Source: a virus. From it: a stretch of 42,417 nt of DNA. Where the stretch lies: UHGV virus genome UHGV-0385671, one strand, 5' to 3'. A program made the position numbers and the translations under genes. The notes beneath the pieces were generated by a model, which saw only the letters and a list, made by a program, of their open reading frames with translations, was not told the origin of the DNA and did not search any database. This document shows, one piece after another, positions 2,420 through 42,306 of the stretch (the first letter of the stretch is position 1; each line of letters opens with the position of its first letter).

Positions 2420-4483
2420 TTAATCCTTACGGTAGTGGTACGCCTCAAAACCGCCAGCGTTCAGTGGGATATCGGGCGCCCATTCGGGGTTAGTGGAGAG
2501 AAGCGCGGAAAGCGCTTTATCGTTGAAATCTTCTGTGTCAGGTGCTTCGGTGATCACCTCGTCGTGTACCGTCAGCACAATGCTGTAACCGGCATCTTCG
2601 ATAAGCGGCATGTTTCCGGCCAGAACGTCGCGGGCGGCCGCCTGGGTGACGTTCTCCACCAGCTTTCCGCCGTAGGTTTTGAGTCGTTGCCATTTACGCG
2701 AATAAGAGTTAACACCCATGTAGGTGATATTCCCTTGTTCGATAACCGGAGACGGGTAGCATACAGCGCGTCCGGATGGTAGCTGTATGCGTAGCCACGC
2801 GCCATCGCGGCGGATTTTAAGATAACCGCAATACAATGTTTTTTGCGGTGTGGCGATTGCAGTGCGGACGGTGCGCTCCAGTTCGTACCAGAAATCACAG
2901 GTCGCGGGATGCGCCCGGCGCCAGAGACGTTTAAGTGAGTCGCAGGCGATAAATACCCGTTCAGAAAGGCCGTAGGTTGACTTACGTTTAACCGATTCGC
3001 CGTACCAGCTTTTCGCCTCGCGGATAACATCGCGGGGAATGTTTGGCAGTGCAGCGTTTGCCAGCTCGTCGAGATCGAGACCGTAAACCAGTGCAAAAGT
3101 GATGAAGGCCGACACACCACCACCATAACCCAGACCGAGTTCCATGACTTTACCGATCTGACGCATGCGTTTATCAACATCATCTGGTGCAATATCAAAA
3201 GCTTTTGCATACGCCAGTTTATATAAGTCCGGACCCGTTCCGGCGTCGTACTCTCTGAATGCATTCAGTTTCCATTCTTCTCCTGCCAGCCATGACAGCA
3301 TACGGCCTTCAATGTTCGACAAGTCACTTACCACCAGTTTTTTGCCTGTTGGCGCGATAATGCAGCCACGTAACGCTGAACTGGTTAGTTCCATGATATT
3401 GTCAAACAGCAGGTCTGCACATCCGGCTTTCAGTGCTTCGATGCCTTCGTCTATTTGTTCCTGTTTTAGTGAAGGGCGGGGAAGGTTCTGGGGCTGGAAT
3501 AGCCGTCCGGCCCAGCGCCCGGTACGCGACGCCCCGCAGAACTGTAGCGTACCGCGTAAGCGCCCGTCGTGGCTTACGCCTTTCATTAGTGCCTTGTATT
3601 TACTGGTGCTGGTAGTACTGGCTTGCAGGCGGATAGCCAGCAGTTCTTTCACGGCAGATGGTAAATCGGGGTCGGCTATACGACGTTCTAGGGTACTGCG
3701 TTGCATGTCTGGTAGCTCCACACCGTAGGATTCAACGATGTGCTTAATCAACGCGTCCCGTTGTGTGGCTGCCTGCACTTCGCCATCAGTCATTTCCTGT
3801 GTACGCTTTGCCAGGCGCTTTTGCTCCTGGTCTACCGCTTCGATCGCAGCGCGCGCGAGTTGCATGTCCATGCAGACGCCCCGGTCGTTGATCTGCTGAT
3901 CACGATGCCAGAGCGCCAGCTCTGTCCCCTGATAATTCCACTTCGGCAGACGTTTATAGACTTCGCGCATTGCCTCGATATCCAGTCCGGCGTAAGCAAC
4001 AAAGCGCCGCCATTCTTCCGGGTGGGTTTTACTGGTGGCCCGACGCAGTTTGCTGTTTTTCGGGCGTGGCTTACAGAACAGCTGGATCAGCGCTTTACCT
4101 TCTTTGTCCTTCGCTTTGTCTTGCGGGACGCCTAGTACTTCGCAGAGTTCCCCCAGAGACCCCGGGAGACCGTGCGCCAGCGCCTGCACCATCGTGTCGC
4201 GCCAACGTTCGACTGGCGGTGCCAGTCGCGGCATTGCATAACGCAGAACGGTGCGGTCGAAGTGAGAGTTATGGAAATAAAGCAGGGTTTCAGGGTCTGC
4301 GATTGCTTCGTATAAGCCGTGTGGAATACCACCACCGGCAGTGATATCCCACACGTTTACTGGCCCGTCGTTGATAGCCCATGCGAAAAGCATCACTTCA
4401 ACGCCTTCGGCATACGCATGGGTACCGTTGTTGATCGGAATGTCACAATAGGTTTCCAGGTCGCCCCATAGTATATTGGACAT
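2420..4483 (-). CDS. Family A DNA polymerase with N-terminal 3'-5' exonuclease domain
   Basis: 687 aa; DnaQ-like exo motif near N-terminus (GDLETY) and PolA-like palm region; GAGGA SD 8 nt upstream of ATG. Confidence 0.9.
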
Positions 4484-6484: not shown

Positions 6485-7786
6485 TCAGATGAGGTCTGCG
6501 GTTAGCGTATCGTCGGATACGTCGTCGAAATCATTTACAGGGTTGATATTGAGTGCGGGGCGTGGGTCTGACTCGGGAACGACGGTGGGTTTACCATCAG
6601 CTCGTGTTATCAGTGCCTCGACTTTTGACCAACGGCGCGGACTGGCCTTTTTGATAAGTTTTTCGGCTTTTGTGGGACTAATAAGTTTAAAGTCGAATAC
6701 TTCTTCAGTTTTGTACCTGAACTGGTCTTTCAGCAGCGCGCGGGCGGCTTCTTCATCGCTCCAGGCGCGATTACCCTGTTTACCAGTAACCAACTTAAAG
6801 CCCGGTACCGGATGCCCGGCGTTCAGCTCACTGTTCACCCGGTCGCGCACAGCCTTTAGCCAGGATTCAATAAAGTCGGCCTGGCTGTAGATCTCCGCCA
6901 GTTCCTCGATTGTCAGAAGCGGTACGCGCGAGCTGGCATCAGTGATGATTTCACTAACCGGTTTGGTCAGGTCTTCGAAATCGCTGGCAGCAGTTTGCAT
7001 GTGCTGCATTTTCTGAGCAATGCAGACTGCTTTGGCTTTGCAGAATCGGCACTGTTTTTCCCCGGGGGTGAAGTTTTCCAGCGGCAGGGTTTCGACGCCT
7101 TCGCAATCGGCGATGTTGAACATCACGATTACACTGGCTGCCGCTTCCTGCGCCCGTTCGCCGAACGCCTGGAGCTCTTCCACCGTCAGAGCCCACTCTG
7201 AAACGTGGTTAAGCCGCGGCTGGTGGATGAACAGGCGCACCGTCTCGAAGTCGTACAGCATGCTGAACTGTTCGAGTGCGCCAAGGGCATACAGCTGCAG
7301 CTGCTCGTTCTGCTCGGCGTCGACCCGCACACCCTTACCGTATTTCAGATCGTGGATCTGCAGCTCGTTGCCCGCGATGATTACGCCGTCGGCGGTACCG
7401 AATGACTCGTCTACGCCCACGATATGGGAGAAGTCGACACGCTGCTCGACCAGCAGCTCATTGCCCTGCGCCAGCGCCCAAACAGTGTCGACGTAACGAC
7501 CAACGGCTTCGACCATTTCCTCATCTACCTGCGGGCCGGAAGTATCATCCGGGTGCTCAGCAAGAGGATAGGATCCGAGGAACATCGCGACGGTGCAACC
7601 TGCATAGTGCTCCGGGTGGCTCTGGCGGTTGCGCAGCACCTTTTCGGCAAGTGCATGCGCTGCAGTGCCCTCGATTGCGAAAGTTGTTTCTTTATCCGGT
7701 TGTGTGGCCTCCAGCGCCAGACTTCCTGGGCAGCGCATCCATCGATGCGCTGATGATGGAGAAAGTTGTGCGTGAACGTCTGGCAT
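6485..7786 (-). CDS. DUF2800 PD-(D/E)XK nuclease, Cas4-like with C-terminal Cys cluster
   Basis: N-terminal [15 protein letters not shown] motif and C-terminal [10 protein letters not shown] four-Cys cluster. Confidence 0.8.
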
Positions 7787-12914: not shown

Positions 12915-13349
12915 ATGCGTAATATTCAACAGGTTTTAGAGCGCTGGGGTGGCTGGGCTGCCAATAGCAACACCACAGTGAGCTGGGCTCCAATAGCGGC
13001 GGGATTTAAAGGGCTGGTAGTCAGCAGCTCGCCTGGCAGGCTGAGTTGCTGTGACGACGATGGCCTGATTATCGATGCTTGCGTCTGTCGGCTGCAGCAG
13101 GTCCGTAAGCCTGAGGAACTGGACGTCATTATGCTGTACTACGTCTACGGGTTAAGCAAACGTGAGATAGGGCGGCGGCGTCGCTGTTCTGAAGGATTTA
13201 TCCGCCAGCAGTTGCAGGTAGCTGAGGGATTCATTGAGGGGTGTCTCTGCATGCTGGGTGTGAGCCTTCAGATGGATCCTGAGGTCGAAATTCAAAGGGA
13301 CGAAAAAAGTATTAGTGCGCTACGCAAAAACTGCGCTACGCTGGTATGA
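12915..13349 (+). CDS. Q-like late-gene antiterminator
   Basis: Position between replication and lysis genes; recalled resemblance to the small Q antiterminator family (MR.IQ.VLERWG.WAA..., CCDDD, AEG.IEG motifs). Confidence 0.6.
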   Translation: MRNIQQVLERWGGWAANSNTTVSWAPIAAGFKGLVVSSSPGRLSCCDDDGLIIDACVCRLQQVRKPEELDVIMLYYVYGLSKREIGRRRRCSEGFIRQQLQVAEGFIEGCLCMLGVSLQMDPEVEIQRDEKSISALRKNCATLV

Positions 13350-13628
13350 GTTGAATTTCTGACCTCAACGAAGAGCTCCAAATCATTGGGGCTTTTTTAA
13401 TGCTCTATTCTCAGTAAAAGTTAATAAAACAGGGTTTTCGTCGCGAAAAAACGCTATGCAGTTTTTGCCCTTTTTTATGCACCTTTTATTCACTCGAATT
13501 TCGCCATTCTGGACCACTTAAGTTGATTAAATAGGCCTTTCATCGCAAATCTATTGCGAGCGGTGATCGTGTGGTTCCTATAACGTACATTATGTTAAAT
13601 AACCTCCTTTTTTAACAAATTTAACAAG

Positions 13629-13651
13629 GTTCGCTATGGCGAACTTTTTTT
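13629..13651 (+). terminator. Intrinsic terminator (tR'-like) between Q and the lysis cassette
   Basis: 6-bp stem GTTCGC/GCGAAC, 4-nt loop, followed by TTTTTTT. Confidence 0.7.
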
Positions 13652-15143: not shown

Positions 15144-15716
15144 ATGACTAAGAAGCTGAAAGCAAAACACGAGGTGTTTTGTCGCGAGTTTCTTGTCGAT
15201 CTGAATGCTACACAAGCAGCTATTCGCGCAGGCTATGCCTCCAGGCGAGCACATGTTACGGGGGCTGAACTATATGGTAAACCTGAGATACGCGCCCGCA
15301 TTAACGAGCTAAAGCAGGAGCGTATTGATCAACTAGGCATTGATGCGAATTATGTGCTAATGCGACTGGTTGAGATCGACAGGCTCGATGTGGCTGACAT
15401 CCTGGAGGACGATTTAAGTATTAAGCCTCTGTCTGCGTGGCCGGAATCGTGGCGTCGGTACCTAAGTGGATTTAACCTCGCTGAAATGTTTGAGGGGCGA
15501 GGAGATGACAGAGAAATGGTCGGGCTCCTTAAAAAGATTAAGTGGCCTGATAAGGTTAAAAACCTTGAGTTGCTTGGGCGCCATGTTTCTGTTCAGGCGT
15601 TTAAAGACAACGTCAAAAATGAAGTGACTGGCGCTGATGGAGGACCAGTCAGAACAGAAATTACCAACTTAACGCCGGAGCAGGCTGCAGAGGCGTATAG
15701 AAAAATGATGGGGTGA
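15144..15716 (+). CDS. Terminase small subunit
   Basis: 190 aa; N-terminal pattern AKHEVFCREFLVDLNATQAAIRAGY typical of terminase small subunits; precedes terL. Confidence 0.8.
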   Translation: MTKKLKAKHEVFCREFLVDLNATQAAIRAGYASRRAHVTGAELYGKPEIRARINELKQERIDQLGIDANYVLMRLVEIDRLDVADILEDDLSIKPLSAWPESWRRYLSGFNLAEMFEGRGDDREMVGLLKKIKWPDKVKNLELLGRHVSVQAFKDNVKNEVTGADGGPVRTEITNLTPEQAAEAYRKMMG

Positions 15717-15717
15717 T

Positions 15718-15734
15718 AGCCGCATGTTGCGGCT
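15718..15734. terminator. Hairpin between convergent terS and the antisense micro-protein gene (possible bidirectional terminator)
   Basis: 7-bp stem AGCCGCA/TGCGGCT with 3-nt loop; U-rich tracts follow on both strands. Confidence 0.4.
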
Positions 15735-15741
15735 ATGTATT

Positions 15742-15954
15742 TTAGGCTTGCTTTGGTCGAGTAATACGGCCAAGAGCTTTAATTGCAGCGACTTTGACGT
15801 TGTGATTTAAGTCTGAAGATAAAGCAAGTAAGCGATTTACATGAGCTGGCGTTGCTGAAGCACTCTCACCGAGAGCATAAATTGCAGACAATTTTACTTC
15901 GTTGTTAAGGTCGTTGGTTAATTCCAACAACTTAGCACTAACTGCTGGTGTCAT
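15742..15954 (-). CDS. 70-aa protein with two tandem HEAT/PBS-lyase-like repeats, antisense between terS and terL
   Basis: AGGAGG SD 4 nt upstream of ATG 15954; internal tandem repeat LLELTNDLNNEVKLSAIYALGESA / LLALSSDLNHNVKVAAIKALGRIT; sits in a 309-bp terS-terL gap. Confidence 0.55.
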   Translation of the reverse strand: MTPAVSAKLLELTNDLNNEVKLSAIYALGESASATPAHVNRLLALSSDLNHNVKVAAIKALGRITRPKQA

Positions 15955-16025
15955 AAAACCTCCTGTAATTGGTACATAAACACTATCAACTTTGTTACGC
16001 AAAAACTCAATGCCTGGAATTGTTT

Positions 16026-17648
16026 ATGTCTATTCCGTTTAAATTCGACTTCAGGAACCCTGATTACCAGATGGTTTTTGAATGGCGGATGGAACGCTTA
16101 CAGCGCATTCGCCAGAACCCTGAAATATTGCCAGCACTAAAACAGTTTTACCGAACCAACCCGGCTCAGTTCATCATCGACTGGGGCATGACAACGGACC
16201 CGCGTAATATTGATTATGGCCTGCCGGTAACCATTCCGTTTTTACTCTTCCCTAAGCAGGAGGAGTGGATCCACTGGATTATGGAACGCTGGAGCAATCG
16301 GGAGAATGGTATTACCGAAAAATCCCGTGAAATGGGGCTCAGTTGGACCGCGATCGGACTGGCCTGCTCGCTCTGCCTCTTCAACAAAGAGATGGTGATC
16401 GGTTTCGGCTCCCGTAAAGAGGAATACGTCGACAGCACCGGTGACCCGAAGGCGCTGTTCTGGAAGGCGCGCAAGTTCGTGGAAACGCTGCCCATCGAGT
16501 TTCGAGGTTCGTGGAGCGAGAAGAAGCACGCGCCATATATGCGTGTTGAGTTTCCTGAAACTGGTGCCGTTATCAAAGGCGAGGCTGGCGATAATATTGG
16601 TCGTGGTGACCGTACCACGCTTTATCTGGTTGATGAGGCTGCATTCCTTCAGCGTCCTCTGCTGATTGATGCGGCGTTGTCACAAACGACGCGTTGCCGT
16701 ATCGACCTGAGTTCAGTTAACGGCATGGCTAACCCGTTCGCTCAGAAGCGTCATGGCGGGAAGATTCCGGTATTCACATTCCACTGGCGGGATGATCCTC
16801 GCAAGGATGAAGAGTGGTATCGCAGGGAATGCGAGAAAATCGATAATCCGGTGGTGGTGGCACAGGAACTTGATCTGAACTACAGCGCATCAGCGGAAGG
16901 CGTCCTGATTCCATCCGAATGGGTACAGGCTGCCGTTGATGCGCATATCAAACTGGGTATCCAGCCAACAGGCAAACGACTTGGCGCGATGGATGTCGCT
17001 GATGAAGGCAGGGACAAAAATGCCTTTTCCACCCGTCATGGCTTCCTCCTGGAAAATGTGCGGGAATGGTCTGGTGTGGGCAGCGACATTTATCAGTCCG
17101 TCGAGAAGGTCTTCGGTTTTTGCGAACAGGACAACCTCGAAGAGTTTCGCTTTGACGAGGACGGGCTGGGCGCTGGCGTTCGCGGCGATGCTCGCGCTAT
17201 CAACGAACTGCGTAACGCTGCGCGCCGACCGTCAATACTCGCCACACCGTTTCGAGGTAGTGGCGCGGTATTTGATCCGGATGATGAAGCTGTTCGCGGG
17301 GACAACGGGCAAGCCGCACGTCTGAACAAGGACTTCTTCGCTAACGCCAAAGCCCAGAGCTGGTGGCGGTTACGTAAACTTTTTCAGAATACCTGGCGCG
17401 CCGTGGTTGAAGGTATGGCTTACAACCCGGACGAAATCATCTCAATCAGCAGTAGCATGGCACTCAAAGATAAACTCATCATCGAGCTTTCGCAGCCGAC
17501 CTATTCCATTAATGGTGTGGGAAAAATCGTTATTGATAAACAGCCTGATGGAACCCGATCGCCAAACCTTGCCGACTCGGTGATGATCAACTATGCCCCA
17601 ATGAATTCAGCCCTGAACATCTGGGAGCTGCTAGGGAGACAGGCCTGA
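16026..17648 (+). CDS. Terminase large subunit
   Basis: Walker B-like LYLVDEAAF, size and position between terS and portal; start at ATG 16026 preferred over the TTG at 15969 in the ORF track. Confidence 0.8.
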
Positions 17649-37034: not shown

Positions 37035-37580
37035 TTATGTGTGAGATGAGTTATAAATAATTTCAGAGTGAAATTTAGTAATGAATGTGGAGTCATCAGG
37101 AATGTCATGCAGTACCAATGCATGAGCTCCTATTTTTACATCATTCCCTATATGCACTTTGCCACCAAGGATGGTGGCGTTACAGCCAATGGTTACATTA
37201 TTTCCTATGACAATATCCATATCATTAAATTCACCGCGAAGTCCAATAGTTACTCCAGGCTTAATTGAACAATTTTCACCTATTGTAACTTTGTGACCGA
37301 TAACAACGCCATTGAGATAAGATATGTCAAACCCTTTACCAATATTTACAGTTAAGGGAACGGTTACATTGTATTTATCAAGAATGAAACGTTCTATTTT
37401 TCCCGCAATCTTCCGACAGTATCCGCCTTTATCAAAAAGGTATTTGGCTATGCGCCACCAAAATAAATAACGTAATCTTCTGTGTTTTATTGCGCGAACA
37501 ATTGCTTTTCGCCAGGAGAAAGGGCGTTTATAACCTATTACTTCATAGTGTATACACTTTTTAAGTTCACTAATATTCAT
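37035..37580 (-). CDS. Left-handed beta-helix (hexapeptide-repeat) acetyltransferase, WcaB/serine acetyltransferase-like; candidate surface-polysaccharide modifier
   Basis: Tandem hexapeptide repeats (VVIGHKVTIGENCSIKPGVTIG..., IVIGNNVTIGCNATILGGKVHIGNDVKIGAHALV); AT-rich; convergent with tfa. Confidence 0.7.
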   Translation of the reverse strand: MNISELKKCIHYEVIGYKRPFSWRKAIVRAIKHRRLRYLFWWRIAKYLFDKGGYCRKIAGKIERFILDKYNVTVPLTVNIGKGFDISYLNGVVIGHKVTIGENCSIKPGVTIGLRGEFNDMDIVIGNNVTIGCNATILGGKVHIGNDVKIGAHALVLHDIPDDSTFITKFHSEIIYNSSHT

Positions 37581-37874: not shown

Positions 37875-38522
37875 CTATGAAGCTAATTTGTTTAATTTCA
37901 TTTGTAGCGACTTTACTTCTTGGTCGATAATGTTGAATCCCTTATTGACGGCATCTCTTAGCTCTGCATCAATATTTTTTATCCCTTGAGCATAATCTAC
38001 CATTACATCTATTTTTTCATCATGTAATCTCTTATACATGGTTTTATCTTTGTTATTGTCAGCCATACCAATAAGGATTTTTTCATAATCCTCAATGAGT
38101 TTGTTGTTTCCTTTAAATGATTGTATTAATGACCGTGAATATGTGTAGATATTAATTATTGAGTCTCTGGCAGAATCATTTAGTTTTGCAATGACATTCG
38201 CATTTTGCTCATAGAATGTGAAATTATCATCCCCTACAGGGAAAGTGAGAATTAACATCTGTCCGGGTTTGATATTATCAATGTGTGTTTTCATCCTTTT
38301 ATTATATAAATTGATTAGGGTGAAAACTTCTCCCTTAACACCTTTTAATACTGAAAGTTGCAATTCAAGGGATTCTCTTTCTGTCTCTACTTTAGACAGC
38401 TTAGCTTGTTGGGTAACTCCTTTTAGGGTAAACCATCCGCCAATAAGAGTACCAACTAGAGCTGTGAGGGAGGAGGATAACCATCCAGGAATGCTATTTA
38501 AAAAATTACTAAATTCACTCAT
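37875..38522 (-). CDS. Membrane-anchored hypothetical protein (215 aa; N-terminal TM helix, coiled coil, C-terminal domain)
   Basis: Hydrophobic WLSSSLTALVGTLIGGWFTL near N-terminus; AT-rich; between invertase remnant and integrase. Confidence 0.55.
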   Translation of the reverse strand: MSEFSNFLNSIPGWLSSSLTALVGTLIGGWFTLKGVTQQAKLSKVETERESLELQLSVLKGVKGEVFTLINLYNKRMKTHIDNIKPGQMLILTFPVGDDNFTFYEQNANVIAKLNDSARDSIINIYTYSRSLIQSFKGNNKLIEDYEKILIGMADNNKDKTMYKRLHDEKIDVMVDYAQGIKNIDAELRDAVNKGFNIIDQEVKSLQMKLNKLAS

Positions 38523-38582: not shown

Positions 38583-39014
38583 CTACTGGAGAAGGCTACC
38601 TGAACTTCGATCTATTCCTGCATCCATATAGTTGATGGTCTTCTGGAGCTCTTCGATTAGGGCAACAGCTTTTGCTCGAGAAATGCATATTAGTTGATCC
38701 GGAAATTCTTGTAAGGACCAGTTTGGTATACTGGCCATGTTATCAGTGAAGGATGCAGACAAGTAAACTTCATTGGTAACCAGAGAATAGCTTACCTCAA
38801 AATTGGTGAGCTCCGGCAAACTGCTAATGTTTGACTCTTTTCTGCGCATAACGTTATCCAGGACTGTGATTATGTACAGGTGATGGTCTTCAATTTTGAA
38901 GAGGGAGTCAAGGGGAGTCTCAAATGAACCGTTATAGAAAGGGGGGATCTTTGTGTTGCTGAACTTATGCAAAATTTTTTTGCACCATAAATCCAACAAC
39001 ACATTCAATAACAC
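38583..39014 (-). CDS. Hypothetical protein (143 aa; start uncertain, alternative ATG at 38849)
   Basis: AT-rich ORF upstream of and co-oriented with 37875..38522; no convincing SD for the longest start. Confidence 0.45.
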   Translation of the reverse strand: MLLNVLLDLWCKKILHKFSNTKIPPFYNGSFETPLDSLFKIEDHHLYIITVLDNVMRRKESNISSLPELTNFEVSYSLVTNEVYLSASFTDNMASIPNWSLQEFPDQLICISRAKAVALIEELQKTINYMDAGIDRSSGSLLQ

Positions 39015-40715: not shown

Positions 40716-40912
40716 TACCGGCTGCGACACTTTTGAATAAAAGCGTCTACATTGCGGCGCTCATAACGAACTACTTTTGCACTGAAACGAATTGGTGCCA
40801 GGATAGCCCGATGACGATGCTTAATATTCCACTCACATAGCGTTTTCTGTGTAATACCTAACTTTTGGCATACTTCATCCGGGGTGAGTAAATCGTCGGG
40901 TTTCTCGCTCAT
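40712..40912 (-). CDS. AlpA-family HTH protein (likely excisionase/regulator)
   Basis: 66 aa; LTPDEVCQKLGITQKTLCEW and VVRYERRNVDAFI pattern; 4-nt overlaps with the helicase gene and convergent with int. Confidence 0.7.
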   Translation of the reverse strand: MSEKPDDLLTPDEVCQKLGITQKTLCEWNIKHRHRAILAPIRFSAKVVRYERRNVDAFIQKCRSRY

Positions 40913-42306
40913 GCTATACCTCTCTTTTTCATGGCATCGAGCAGGATGTCCTGCACTGTTCGTTTTGAGTTGCGCCGCTCCATCACCATTTCGTCCATAG
41001 TGTCGGCAGCAATAATGTGGTGAATAAATACCGGACGATTGTGTCCGGCCTGTATCTGCCTGGTGGGGCCGATACGTTCAATAATTTGCTGATATTGCTC
41101 CAGGTCCCACCAGTGTGAGAAAAATACCAGTATATTCCCGCCGTCCTGCATGTTCAGGCCGTGGCCCGCGCTGGCTGGGTGTGCAAAGAGAACAGGAATC
41201 TTTCCGGAATTCCAGTCGCGCAGTGTCTGTGGATCCTGGTCGAGGTGACGACCGCGAGGGAATGCTTTAAGCAAGCGTTCAAGATCGTGTTTCCAGTGAT
41301 AAGCAACCAGCACAGGTGCGCCAGCTGCTTCGGTCAGTATGCTGTCCAGCGCCTGTAGTTTGGTGTCATGCAGTTCTGACCAACTTCCGGTGTCGTCTGT
41401 GTATACTGCGCCACTGGCGATTTGAAGACACTTCAGTGTCTTTGCCGCGGCGTTCGGTGCTTCGATACCTTCGCCATTCAGCTCGAGGAACATTTCCTTT
41501 TCCATTTCACGATACTGCTGACGGGCCTTCGGCGGCATATCCACGCGGATTACGTTATGGATGGGGTCTTTGATATCGAACCAGTCGGCCGCATCCAGCG
41601 AGAGGGTCACATCGGCTAATGCTCGCTGTATTTCACCCTGTGAGTGAGCAAAAGGCTCCAGTTTAGTCCAGCTCTGTCCCGGAAACTGTATCGAGTTGAA
41701 CCAGCGTGAGGTAAACGCGCCGTAAGTGCGCCCGAGACGTTGCCCTTGGTCCACAAACCACGATTGTCCCCACAAATCTACCAGGCCGTTCGGTGCTGGC
41801 GTACCGGTGAGATTTATCCAGCGCCGGACATACTTATGCGCCACTTTGCCCAGCGCCGCCGCGCGCTTACCACCACCTCGCAGCCGGAAGGATTTTAGCC
41901 GGGTGCTTTCATCTGGAATGACAATACCGAACGGCCATCGTTCTCCCAATTCTTCAACCAGCCAGACAAGGTTATCGTAGTTGATGGTGAACACGCTTGC
42001 GTTGCTGTTCGCCAGCGCCGTAGAGCGCGCTTTGGCATTACCAACAATCGGCTGCACCTCGATATTGCGCAAATGCCCCCACTTCACTGCTTCATCCGGC
42101 CAGGTGTTTGCTGCAACACGTAGCGGCGCGAGGACCAGTGCGGGGCGTGTTTCTGCCCCTGCCATAAAAAGATCTTCCAGCGCAGTGAGCGTTGCCACGG
42201 TTTTACCCATTCCCATGCCTGCCCAGATGTTGCAGCGCATAATGTCGATTTGATGATTGATGATGAGATCTTGGTAGGGGTGAGGTGAAAATATAGCATA
42301 GTCCAT
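40909..42306 (-). CDS. SNF2-family helicase (superfamily 2 ATPase)
   Basis: Walker A GMGMGKT, DEAD-like box IPDEST, C-terminal helicase motifs; GGAGATA SD upstream of ATG 42306. Confidence 0.8.
   Translation of the reverse strand: MDYAIFSPHPYQDLIINHQIDIMRCNIWAGMGMGKTVATLTALEDLFMAGAETRPALVLAPLRVAANTWPDEAVKWGHLRNIEVQPIVGNAKARSTALANSNASVFTINYDNLVWLVEELGERWPFGIVIPDESTRLKSFRLRGGGKRAAALGKVAHKYVRRWINLTGTPAPNGLVDLWGQSWFVDQGQRLGRTYGAFTSRWFNSIQFPGQSWTKLEPFAHSQGEIQRALADVTLSLDAADWFDIKDPIHNVIRVDMPPKARQQYREMEKEMFLELNGEGIEAPNAAAKTLKCLQIASGAVYTDDTGSWSELHDTKLQALDSILTEAAGAPVLVAYHWKHDLERLLKAFPRGRHLDQDPQTLRDWNSGKIPVLFAHPASAGHGLNMQDGGNILVFFSHWWDLEQYQQIIERIGPTRQIQAGHNRPVFIHHIIAADTMDEMVMERRNSKRTVQDILLDAMKKRGIA

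What the first reader, a model, noticed from the sequence alone, without database searches (positions are those of the whole stretch)
15717..16025. Antisense 70-aa HEAT-like micro-protein gene occupying the terS-terL gap
terS and terL are usually adjacent; here they are separated by 309 bp containing a minus-strand ORF with an AGGAGG SD, two tandem about 30-aa HEAT/PBS-lyase-like repeats, and a hairpin at its 3' end. A small repeat protein transcribed against the late operon is a candidate moron or anti-defence factor. The gap could alternatively hold a packaging site.
Basis: seen in the sequence. Interest (0 to 1): 0.65.

Follow-up and report, generated by a model that had tools for sequence, protein, structure and literature searches.

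The report
Antisense two-repeat HEAT cargo gene
A real 70-residue protein gene made of two HEAT-like repeats has been recombined, backwards, into the normally seamless junction between a prophage's two DNA-packaging genes. It is one of several interchangeable cargo genes ("morons") found at that spot, and it belongs to an unstudied family also carried by more than 1,200 IncI plasmids.

Summary
The 309-bp terS-terL gap (15717-16025) holds a minus-strand 70-codon ORF (15742-15954). It has an AGGAGG Shine-Dalgarno, two 33-residue HEAT-like repeats (Pfam HEAT_2 above threshold; AF2 pLDDT 95) and a 9-bp GC-rich hairpin.

It is a true gene. Synonymous sites are saturated between allele groups while pN is about 0.25.

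It is a moron, not a packaging element. More than 300 E. coli prophages with about 98% identical terS/terL have the two genes 2 bp apart. Only 7 of 5,426 complete E. coli genomes carry a HEAT allele there, in two alleles only 62% identical. The window's cassette (about 15713-16058) was imported from an Enterobacter-prophage-like donor.

Across 80 species-level relatives of this terL, the junction is a slot for antisense, AT-rich cargo:
- HEAT: 2 loci
- DUF2158 with or without DUF6953: 5
- DUF1508: 1
- RelB-YafQ: 2
- GNAT: 1

Distant family members sit beside excA on 1,215 plasmid records.

The function is unknown and nothing has been published. The most likely role is a minimal protein-binding module made in the lysogen and silenced by head-on late transcription. 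An anti-defence role is possible but untested. This is an ordinary kind of element, and the family it belongs to is moderately interesting.

The parts
15144..15716 (+). terS (190 aa, Terminase_2). Its C-terminal tail ...AEAYRKMMG is shared by three otherwise different terS types that precede this terL lineage.
   Evidence: Pfam Terminase_2 E 2.8e-31; PHROG 51; tails compared.
15713..16058 (.). Imported mosaic segment. It comprises the last terS codon plus stop, the hairpin, the HEAT gene, its promoter region and the first ~11 codons of terL. It is about 98% identical to an Enterobacter kobei prophage (L009), while the flanks match HEAT-less E. coli prophages.
   Evidence: Mismatch tracks; junction alignment.
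15716..15736 (.). GC-rich hairpin (9-bp stem, 3-nt loop) lying between the convergent terS and HEAT stop codons. It is followed by GTATTTT on the + strand. An equivalent GCCGC...GCGGC hairpin with compensatory changes is present in other HEAT-bearing loci.
15742..15954 (-). 70-aa two-repeat HEAT-like microprotein gene (RefSeq WP_032214630.1, 'HEAT repeat domain-containing protein').
15959..15964 (-). Shine-Dalgarno AGGAGG, 4 nt upstream of the ATG. A strong SD is conserved in all 8 terL-linked loci compared.
15982..16010 (-). Predicted sigma-70-like promoter of the HEAT gene: -35 TTGAGT (16005-16010), 17-nt spacer, -10 GATAGT (15982-15987). This is 8 of 12 matches, below the scanner's 9 of 12 cut-off. 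A best-scoring TTGAnn -35 at the same offset (18 nt from the terL ATG) is found in 5 of 8 loci, and in 4 of them the best -10 lies 16-17 nt downstream, despite diverged surrounding sequence.
   Evidence: own scan; not called by the scanner. Prediction only.
16026..17648 (+). terL (540 aa). Its first ~11 codons ([11 protein letters not shown]...) belong to the imported segment.
   Evidence: PHROG 2 terminase large subunit E 2.8e-32.

Best explanation
The gap holds a moron, not part of the packaging machinery. It is a self-contained, horizontally exchanged transcription unit set antisense in the late operon. The unit consists of a predicted sigma-70-like promoter about 20-45 bp from the terL start, a strong SD, a 70-codon ORF and a GC-rich hairpin shared with the converging terS.

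Shown:
- The cassette is absent from near-identical relatives.
- It was recombined in from another phage lineage.
- It is under purifying selection as a protein.
- It occupies a junction that in related phages carries other antisense cargo (a toxin-antitoxin pair and DUF2158, DUF1508 and GNAT genes).
- The protein is a minimal, uncapped two-repeat alpha-solenoid of the alphaRep/HEAT-like type.

Inferred:
- The protein has no room for a catalytic site, so it most likely works only by stoichiometric binding of another protein. Binding would be through the face carrying the family-conserved non-core residues Y26, E30, K59, R63 and R66.
- It is made from its own promoter while the late operon is silent (in the lysogen, and likewise in plasmid-carrying cells for the IncI homologues). 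It would be turned down by head-on Q-antiterminated late transcription during lytic growth.
- Its target is therefore more likely a host or competitor-element protein than the phage's own terminase.

The identity of the partner and the phenotype are unknown.
For: Presence/absence:
- 350 E. coli genomes carry this terS-terL module. More than 300 have the two genes 2 bp apart (TAAGTATG).
- 5 genomes carry the window-type insert and 2 carry an allele only 62% identical in protein.
- Four sequenced E. coli phages with 97.6% identical flanks lack the insert.

Import: window 15713-16058 matches Enterobacter prophage L009, while the flanks match HEAT-less E. coli prophages.

Coding: pS 0.75-0.87 against pN 0.25-0.29; dN/dS 0.08-0.26 for close pairs.

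Cassette features:
- GC dip to 0.385.
- SD and promoter position conserved.
- Hairpins with compensatory changes.

Conserved placement: always antisense, 48-76 bp upstream of this terL, in E. coli, Enterobacter, Yersinia, Serratia, Proteus, Pantoea and phage NG54, regardless of terS type.

Slot behaviour: 11 of 80 species-level relatives carry antisense AT-rich cargo of five unrelated kinds at the same junction.

Not terminase-bound: distant family members lie next to excA on 1,215 plasmid records (1,201 conjugative; the one typed here is IncI-gamma/K1), and upstream of terS in Citrobacter prophages that have a different terL.

Fold: AF2 pLDDT 95.1, four helices; TM 0.76-0.83 and rmsd 1.1-1.6 A to alphaRep binders; sequence hits to alphaRep.

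Conserved non-core residues.
Against: - No expression data. The promoter is an 8-of-12 consensus match that the standard scan did not call.
- The hairpin's T-run is on the + strand, so it looks more like a terminator for terS-sense transcripts than for the HEAT mRNA.
- Conserved residues other than E30, R63 and R66 are largely the HEAT consensus itself, so a conserved binding face is weakly grounded. The mapping to alphaRep variable positions rests on my recollection of the alphaRep design, not on a tool result.
- The tight, long-term linkage to one terL lineage (HEAT and terL identities broadly co-diverge) could reflect a terL-related role rather than mere hitch-hiking.
- No partner has been identified.
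Confidence: 0.6

Rival explanations
1. Anti-defence protein. The microprotein binds and blocks a host immune sensor, protecting the phage (and IncI plasmids) on entry or the prophage in the lysogen. One version: it caps or poisons the HEAT-repeat sensor domain of a STAND/NLR-like or DSR2-like defence protein, or it shields terL, a known Avs trigger (Gao et al. 2022, from my own knowledge).
For: - It is small, AT-rich, patchily distributed and carried by both prophages and conjugative plasmids of Enterobacterales.
- It is uncapped, so it could stack onto another solenoid (inference).
- The highest-scoring large relatives in the exhaustive search include NACHT-HEAT and TIR-NACHT-HEAT proteins.
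- HEAT-repeat sensor domains exist in defence proteins such as DSR2 (PMC11263360, listed).
Against: - There is no similarity to any characterised anti-defence protein, and only a generic HEAT hit in PADLOC.
- The plasmid homologues sit next to excA and the tra genes, which to my knowledge is not the leading region where plasmid anti-defence genes cluster.
- The NACHT-HEAT hits score high because many repeats sum. They come from environmental metagenomes with no organism names recorded.
- The same slot also carries toxin-antitoxin modules, which are not anti-defence genes.
Confidence: 0.15
2. Resident-state defence or exclusion factor. The lysogen-expressed protein sequesters a protein of superinfecting phages or incoming plasmids, benefiting the host and the resident element.
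For: - Its own promoter and an orientation opposite to the silent late operon.
- Neighbouring cargo alternatives include RelB-YafQ.
- The plasmid homologues are convergent with the entry-exclusion gene excA.
Against: - There is no effector or membrane domain.
- No known defence system consists of a 70-aa repeat protein, and no specific PADLOC model matches.
- Adjacency to excA may only mark an accessory slot, because hha occupies that slot in pESBL-EA11.
Confidence: 0.15
3. Terminase or packaging accessory. The protein binds terL (or the conserved terS tail) and modulates packaging, which would explain its constant position next to this terL.
For: - In the close family it is always 48-76 bp upstream of the same terL lineage, across at least seven genera and three terS types.
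- HEAT and terL divergence roughly track each other.
Against: - It is absent from about 98% of phages with this terL, including viable isolated phages.
- It is transcribed against the late operon.
- Distant family members occur on plasmids without any terminase, and upstream of a different terS/terL pair.
- Unrelated cargo fills the same slot.
- The two E. coli alleles differ by 38% while terL differs by 2%.
Confidence: 0.06
4. The interval is functionally non-coding: a pac/cos site, or an antisense RNA regulating terS/terL. On this view the ORF is incidental.
For: - It lies between the terminase genes.
- The hairpin abuts the terS stop codon.
- A 9-nt inverted repeat could pair with the terL start codon in the late mRNA.
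Against: - The interval is missing in nearly all relatives that have the same terminase.
- There is strong purifying selection on the protein.
- The predicted transcript does not overlap the terS or terL coding sequences.
- There is no Rfam match.
- The 9-nt repeat is about what chance gives in 361 AT-rich bases (my estimate, about 0.25 expected).
Confidence: 0.03

Closest known systems
Phage morons (Hendrix/Juhala definition), e.g. lambda bor and lom, and the HK97 gp15 moron (from my own knowledge)
   Same: It is an extra gene between two genes that are adjacent in close relatives. It has its own predicted promoter and a terminator-like hairpin, and a deviant (low) GC content. It sits in the late region, and its orientation allows expression in the lysogen. 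Lambda bor is likewise transcribed against the late operon.
   Different: The product is a cytoplasmic-looking repeat microprotein rather than a membrane or envelope protein. The site splits a normally 2-bp terS-terL junction. Expression has not been shown.
alphaRep artificial HEAT-like repeat binders (PDB 3LTJ, 4JW2 and others), and the natural HEAT_2/PBS-type repeats they were derived from
   Same: The repeat sequence pattern matches (profile E down to 6e-39 against multi-repeat alphaReps). The fold matches too (TM 0.76-0.83, rmsd 1.1-1.6 A). These scaffolds act purely as protein binders.
   Different: It has only two repeats, a 33-residue rather than 31-residue period, and no N- or C-cap. 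It is natural and carried on a mobile element. Its partner is unknown.
Hha/YmoA small H-NS co-regulators of conjugative plasmids
   Same: They are of similar size (69 aa). In pESBL-EA11, hha occupies the same slot beside excA that the HEAT homologue occupies in other plasmids carrying IncI1-type transfer genes.
   Different: There is no sequence similarity (no Pfam HHA hit). The hha gene lies on the opposite strand to the HEAT gene in that slot. Sharing a slot is not evidence of a shared function.
Anti-CRISPR/anti-defence loci embedded in late operons of temperate phages (e.g. Mu-like Pseudomonas phages; from my own knowledge)
   Same: Both are small, patchily distributed cargo genes with their own promoter inside the head/packaging region of prophages.
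   Different: Those loci are co-oriented with the late genes and usually carry an aca regulator. Here there is no regulator, no homology and the opposite orientation.

Membership tests
HEAT repeat (Pfam HEAT_2 PF13646 / HEAT PF02985) | Score above the curated gathering threshold | tested here: met
   HEAT_2 34.9 bits against 27.7; HEAT 31.0 against 23.5.
HEAT repeat (Pfam HEAT_2 PF13646 / HEAT PF02985) | Tandem helix-turn-helix repeats of about 30-40 residues forming an alpha-solenoid | tested here: met
   The AF2 model has pLDDT 95.1 with helices at 3-12, 18-30, 36-45 and 51-64. TM is 0.76-0.83 to alphaRep structures.
PBS-lyase HEAT-like repeat (PF03130; CpcE/CpcF/NblB type) | Score above the gathering threshold | tested here: not met
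   HEAT_PBS 15.8 bits against 20.9.
PBS-lyase HEAT-like repeat (PF03130; CpcE/CpcF/NblB type) | Multi-repeat lyase-sized protein in a phycobilisome context | tested here: not met
   The protein is 70 aa and sits in an enterobacterial prophage.
Moron (Juhala/Hendrix) | Inserted between genes that are adjacent in related phages | tested here: met
   terS and terL are 2 bp apart in more than 300 E. coli prophages and 4 phages with about 98% identical flanks.
Moron (Juhala/Hendrix) | Nucleotide composition differs from that of its neighbours | tested here: met
   GC is 0.385-0.42 in the insert against 0.47-0.57 in the flanks. The same holds for cargo in 11 related loci.
Moron (Juhala/Hendrix) | Own promoter | tested here: inconclusive
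   TTGAGT-17-GATAGT is an 8-of-12 match. A best-scoring TTGAnn -35 at the same offset is seen in 5 of 8 loci, but the consensus scan did not call the site.
Moron (Juhala/Hendrix) | Own terminator | tested here: inconclusive
   There is a strong conserved hairpin, but the T-run follows it on the + strand, not on the HEAT strand.
Moron (Juhala/Hendrix) | Expressed from the repressed prophage | not testable with these tools
   This needs RNA-seq, Ribo-seq or proteomics of a lysogen.
cos/pac packaging site | Present in all phages that share the same terminase specificity | tested here: not met
   The insert is absent from about 98% of prophages with near-identical terS/terL.
Known anti-phage defence proteins (PADLOC-DB) | Significant full-length match to a defence-system model | tested here: not met
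   The only hit is a partial match to a 1,972-position generic HEAT-ARM model, 17 bits.
Known anti-defence proteins (Acr, Ocr, Ard, sponge proteins and others) | Homology or fold match to a characterised inhibitor | tested here: not met
   PHROGs, NCBIfam, PDB sequence search, PDB fold search and BFVD fold search returned only unannotated families or generic HEAT/ARM repeats. No dedicated anti-defence library was available.
Hha/YmoA | Match to the Pfam HHA family | tested here: not met
   No HHA hit even at E up to 1.

The most novel reading that the evidence does not exclude
The 65-72-aa two-repeat HEAT proteins are a new class of mobile-element immune modulator shared by Enterobacterales prophages and IncI conjugative plasmids. 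On this reading the uncapped mini-solenoid docks onto a host protein and disables it while the element is resident or entering. The target could be, for example, the repeat sensor domain of a STAND/NLR-like or DSR2-like defence protein, or another surveillance factor.
Probability: 0.12. Interest if true: 0.8.

Novelty: new member of a known kind. Interest (0 to 1): 0.4.

Why it matters
As a moron the element is ordinary, but three points make it useful.

1. It exposes an uncharacterised microprotein family: about 100 sequence clusters, prophages of at least eight enterobacterial genera, and 1,215 plasmid records. It is probably the smallest natural HEAT solenoid that could still act as a binder. 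Nature supplies near-isogenic prophages with and without it (97-98% identical flanks), which suits a clean phenotype test.

2. It defines the terS-terL junction of this terminase lineage as a slot that accepts only antisense cargo: HEAT, DUF2158/DUF6953, DUF1508, RelB-YafQ and GNAT. Such slots are productive places to look for defence and counter-defence genes.

3. It gives a worked example of cassette transfer between phage lineages. The left junction uses an 8-bp microhomology in the conserved terS tail and the right junction uses homology in the terL 5' end.

Tried and rejected
- Packaging site in the gap: rejected by the presence/absence data.
- Known RNA family in the gap: none; the best Rfam hit has E 0.5.
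- Regulatory antisense RNA over terS/terL: the predicted transcript lies wholly inside the gap.
- PBS-lyase membership: below threshold.
- Hha-like identity, prompted by the 'Hha/YmoA' label in the pESBL table of PMC4288162: that plasmid carries a genuine hha gene on the other strand in the same slot, not a mislabelled HEAT gene.
- Recent gene conversion between the two repeats: rejected. Repeats are 48-74% identical in protein in the terL-linked loci except NG54 (41%), but only a third to a half of identical residues use the same codon.
- Mimicry of an enterobacterial NLR sensor: the NACHT-HEAT top hits come from environmental metagenomes with no organism names recorded, and they score high because many repeats sum.
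- tblastn of three family members against 50,697 phage records: no match.
- Literature searches on HEAT repeat with IncI1, prophage, moron or anti-defence: nothing on this family.
- First AF2 run with 5 sequences: only pLDDT 68.6. It was superseded by the 78-sequence run.
- 9-nt inverted repeat 15974-15982 / 16021-16029 covering the terL start: about chance level and not clearly conserved.

Full report
THE OBSERVATION

The window is a lambdoid-type temperate phage genome. It encodes a CI-like repressor, a VapE-like replication protein, antiterminator Q, a lysis cassette, terS, terL, a Phage_portal_3 portal and an integrase. terS (Terminase_2, 190 aa) ends at 15716 and terL (540 aa) starts at 16026.

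On the minus strand, an ATG at 15954 opens a 70-codon ORF that ends with TAA at 15742. AGGAGG lies 4 nt upstream of the ATG. Pfam HEAT_2 (34.9 bits against 27.7) and HEAT (31.0 against 23.5) pass their curated thresholds. The PBS-lyase HEAT-like model does not (15.8 against 20.9). The two repeats have a 33-residue period and are 48% identical. A perfect 9-bp hairpin (15716-15736) fills the space between the converging terS and HEAT stop codons. It gives -13.3 kcal/mol and z = -5.2 on the HEAT strand.

IT IS A REAL GENE

RefSeq already annotates the ORF as 'HEAT repeat domain-containing protein' (WP_032214630.1).

- A profile search recovered about 100 sequence clusters of 65-72-aa proteins in Escherichia, Enterobacter, Yersinia, Serratia, Proteus, Pantoea, Rahnella, Salmonella, Citrobacter, Erwinia and others.
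- Between the three allele groups compared, synonymous sites are saturated (pS 0.75-0.87) while pN is 0.25-0.29. Close pairs give dN/dS of 0.08-0.26.
- All eight terL-linked loci compared have a strong SD 4-8 nt before the start codon.
- With 78 homologues, AlphaFold2 gives a four-helix, two-repeat model at pLDDT 95.1.
- The model superposes on designed alphaRep HEAT-like binders at TM 0.76-0.83 and rmsd 1.1-1.6 A. The alphaReps are also the best PDB sequence matches.

IT IS AN INSERTION, NOT PART OF THE PACKAGING APPARATUS

- Of 5,426 complete E. coli genomes, 350 carry this terS-terL module. In more than 300 of them, and in four sequenced E. coli phages with 97.6% identical flanks, terS and terL are 2 bp apart (TAAGTATG).
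- Only five genomes carry the window-type insert.
- Two genomes carry a different allele in the same gap, 62% identical in protein while terL is 98% identical.
- A mismatch map shows that window 15713-16058 is about 98% identical to an Enterobacter kobei prophage whose terS belongs to a different family (DUF2280). This segment covers the last terS codon, the hairpin, the gene, its upstream region and the first ~11 terL codons. The sequence on either side matches the HEAT-less E. coli prophages.
- The left junction lies in only about 8 bp of shared sequence (ATGATGGG). That sequence encodes the ...YRKMMG tail which all three terS types preceding this terL have in common. The right junction lies in conserved terL codons.
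- The second E. coli allele has independent junctions with a 15-bp direct repeat (GGGCTAAGTATGCCG / GGGCTAGGTATGCCG). This is compatible with insertion, and it also offers a path to precise loss.
- The insert is AT-rich: GC is 0.385-0.42 against 0.47-0.57 around it.

A pac or cos site cannot sit in a segment that about 98% of phages with the same terminase lack.

A CONSERVED POSITION AND A CARGO SLOT

In the close family the gene is always antisense and 48-76 bp upstream of this particular terL. This holds in Yersinia, Enterobacter, E. coli, Proteus, Serratia, Pantoea and the metagenomic phage NG54. It holds behind three different terS types. HEAT and terL identities broadly co-diverge, with exceptions that indicate allele exchange.

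I fetched 80 species-representative loci for this terL lineage.

- In 34 loci, terS and terL are 20 bp apart or less.
- 2 loci carry a HEAT gene.
- 9 loci carry other cargo at the same place: DUF2158 with or without DUF6953 (5), DUF1508 (1), a RelB-YafQ toxin-antitoxin pair (2) and a GNAT acetyltransferase (1).
- Every Pfam-supported cargo gene is on the antisense strand. Every cargo-bearing gap is lower in GC than terL, only marginally so for the two RelB-YafQ loci.

The junction is therefore a slot for antisense morons, and the HEAT gene is one of several interchangeable occupants. This argues strongly against a dedicated packaging role.

THE FAMILY IS NOT TIED TO TERMINASES

A more distant subfamily (about 41% identity) is found on 1,215 plasmid records, almost all of them conjugative (1,201) and carrying IncI1-type transfer genes. 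There it is convergent with the entry-exclusion gene excA and opposite in orientation to the transfer genes. In pESBL-EA11, a genuine hha gene on the other strand occupies the same slot instead. In Citrobacter koseri prophages, a member lies antisense between the lysis genes and a terS that pairs with an unrelated terL.

No member was found in 50,697 deposited phage records. No paper in the library deals with the family. PHROGs, NCBIfam and PADLOC give nothing specific.

HOW IT PROBABLY WORKS

What is shown is a self-contained cassette. On the HEAT strand, TTGAGT-17-GATAGT (16010-15982) is only an 8-of-12 match and the standard scan did not call it. However, a best-scoring TTGAnn -35 sits at the same offset from the terL ATG in five of eight loci, and in four of them the best -10 follows after 16-17 nt. 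The intervening sequence has otherwise diverged, and near-equivalents exist in two more loci. GCCGC...GCGGC hairpins with compensatory changes follow the stop codon wherever terS abuts. The T-run is on the + strand, so the hairpin may chiefly stop un-antiterminated terS-sense transcripts. The phage's own Q (12915-13349) would carry late transcription through it.

The rest is inference. A 70-residue, four-helix repeat unit has no room for catalysis, so it most likely acts by binding. Beyond the hydrophobic and Ala/Leu/Gly repeat core, the family conserves E30 (41 of 44 non-redundant sequences), R63 (42 of 44) and R66 (40 of 44). Y26 and K59 are conserved less strictly. From my recollection of the alphaRep design, several of these fall at the positions randomised to create binding surfaces. 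That mapping is a lead, not a test. The molecule has no capping repeats, so self-stacking or docking onto another solenoid is conceivable.

Because the gene faces the late operon, it should be expressed when that operon is silent and suppressed by head-on transcription when it fires. The same logic applies to the plasmid homologues that face the tra genes. I therefore favour a resident-state binder aimed at a host or competitor protein. I cannot separate defence, anti-defence and host-modulation roles with the data available. Confidence in 'moron' is about 0.9. Confidence in the full statement, including resident-state binding, is about 0.6.

COMPARISON AND NOVELTY

- In kind, this is a classical moron in the sense of Hendrix and colleagues. 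Its orientation recalls lambda bor.
- In fold, it is an ordinary HEAT-like repeat, closest to the alphaRep scaffold.
- It fails the tests for PBS lyase, Hha, a pac/cos site and known defence or anti-defence proteins.
- What is new is modest. The gene is a member of an unstudied but widespread microprotein family of mobile elements, and the terS-terL junction of this terminase lineage is recognised as an antisense cargo slot.
- I rate it 'new member of a known kind', interest 0.4.
- The most novel reading not excluded is that these mini-solenoids are a new class of immune modulator shared by prophages and IncI plasmids. I give that about 0.12 probability.

Noticed in passing
window 13440-13600 (plus a terminator-like hairpin at about 13625-13650); related loci L034-L071, L017, L026, L036, L041 and others: A conserved non-coding element of about 160-180 bp (CTATGCA ... 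TTTTATGCAnnnnTTTAT(G/T)CA ... CATTATGTTAAAT) lies between Q and the holin gene in this window, and a stem-loop with a T7 run follows it. That layout resembles a late promoter with tR'. The TTATGTTAAA signature was found in 31 of the 90 loci scanned. In the cargo-free ones it lies 34-49 bp upstream of the terL start, after terS. In all eight that carry cargo (HEAT, DUF2158, DUF1508, GNAT), the cargo lies between the element and terL. Whether it is a late promoter, an activator target or a terminase recognition site is open.
   Followed up: partly
window 15690-15713; terS 3' ends in L004, L006, L008, L009 and 80 further loci: Three unrelated-looking terS types (Terminase_2 of 190 aa, Terminase_2 of about 340 aa, and DUF2280 of 157 aa) all end in ...A(E/D)xY(R/K)(K)(M/L)MG immediately before this terL lineage. 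The tail is probably the terL-docking peptide. It is also the left recombination anchor for cassette exchange.
   Followed up: partly
L028 3501-3710 and L029 (NC_018659) 81319-81528: In plasmids carrying IncI1-type transfer genes, the slot beside excA holds either the antisense 68-69-aa HEAT gene or, in pESBL-EA11, a 69-aa hha gene on the excA strand. These are alternative small-protein cargos at one site.
   Followed up: partly
window 15742-15954 and homologues: Within each protein the two repeats share lineage-specific residues, for example TRD.NNDIRIAA twice in CAU16175, TNDFNN twice in Yersinia and GLDKD twice in P0147. Codon usage at the identical residues differs, however. This indicates either old conversion events or selection for two equivalent surfaces.
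   Followed up: partly
L002 (E. coli CAU16175) 2105-2435: The second E. coli HEAT allele is bracketed by a 15-bp direct repeat of the terS-stop/terL-start junction (GGGCTAAGTATGCCG / GGGCTAGGTATGCCG). The left copy forms one arm of its hairpin. Recombination between the repeats would restore the empty site exactly.
   Followed up: no
window 15974-15982 and 16021-16029: A perfect 9-nt inverted repeat (ACATAAACA / TGTTTATGT) has a right arm that covers the terL start codon. In the late mRNA it could occlude terL initiation. It is AU-rich, near chance expectation and only partly conserved.
   Followed up: partly
window 37035-37580 (-), 37875-38522 (-), 38583-39014 (-): A further block of minus-strand genes lies between the tail genes and the integrase. 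It includes a hexapeptide-repeat acetyltransferase, which is likely lysogenic-conversion cargo.
   Followed up: no
window 2420-4483 (-), 6485-7786 (-), 40909-42306 (-): The phage carries its own family-A DNA polymerase, a DUF2800 PD-(D/E)XK nuclease and an SNF2-type helicase. That replication module is unusual for a lambdoid late-gene architecture.
   Followed up: no
L039, L063, L069 (gap between terS and terL): DUF2158 (YodC-like) and DUF6953 genes recur as a two-gene antisense cassette in the same slot in three genera. DUF2158 also occurs alone in two more loci. This is another uncharacterised small-protein cargo.
   Followed up: no
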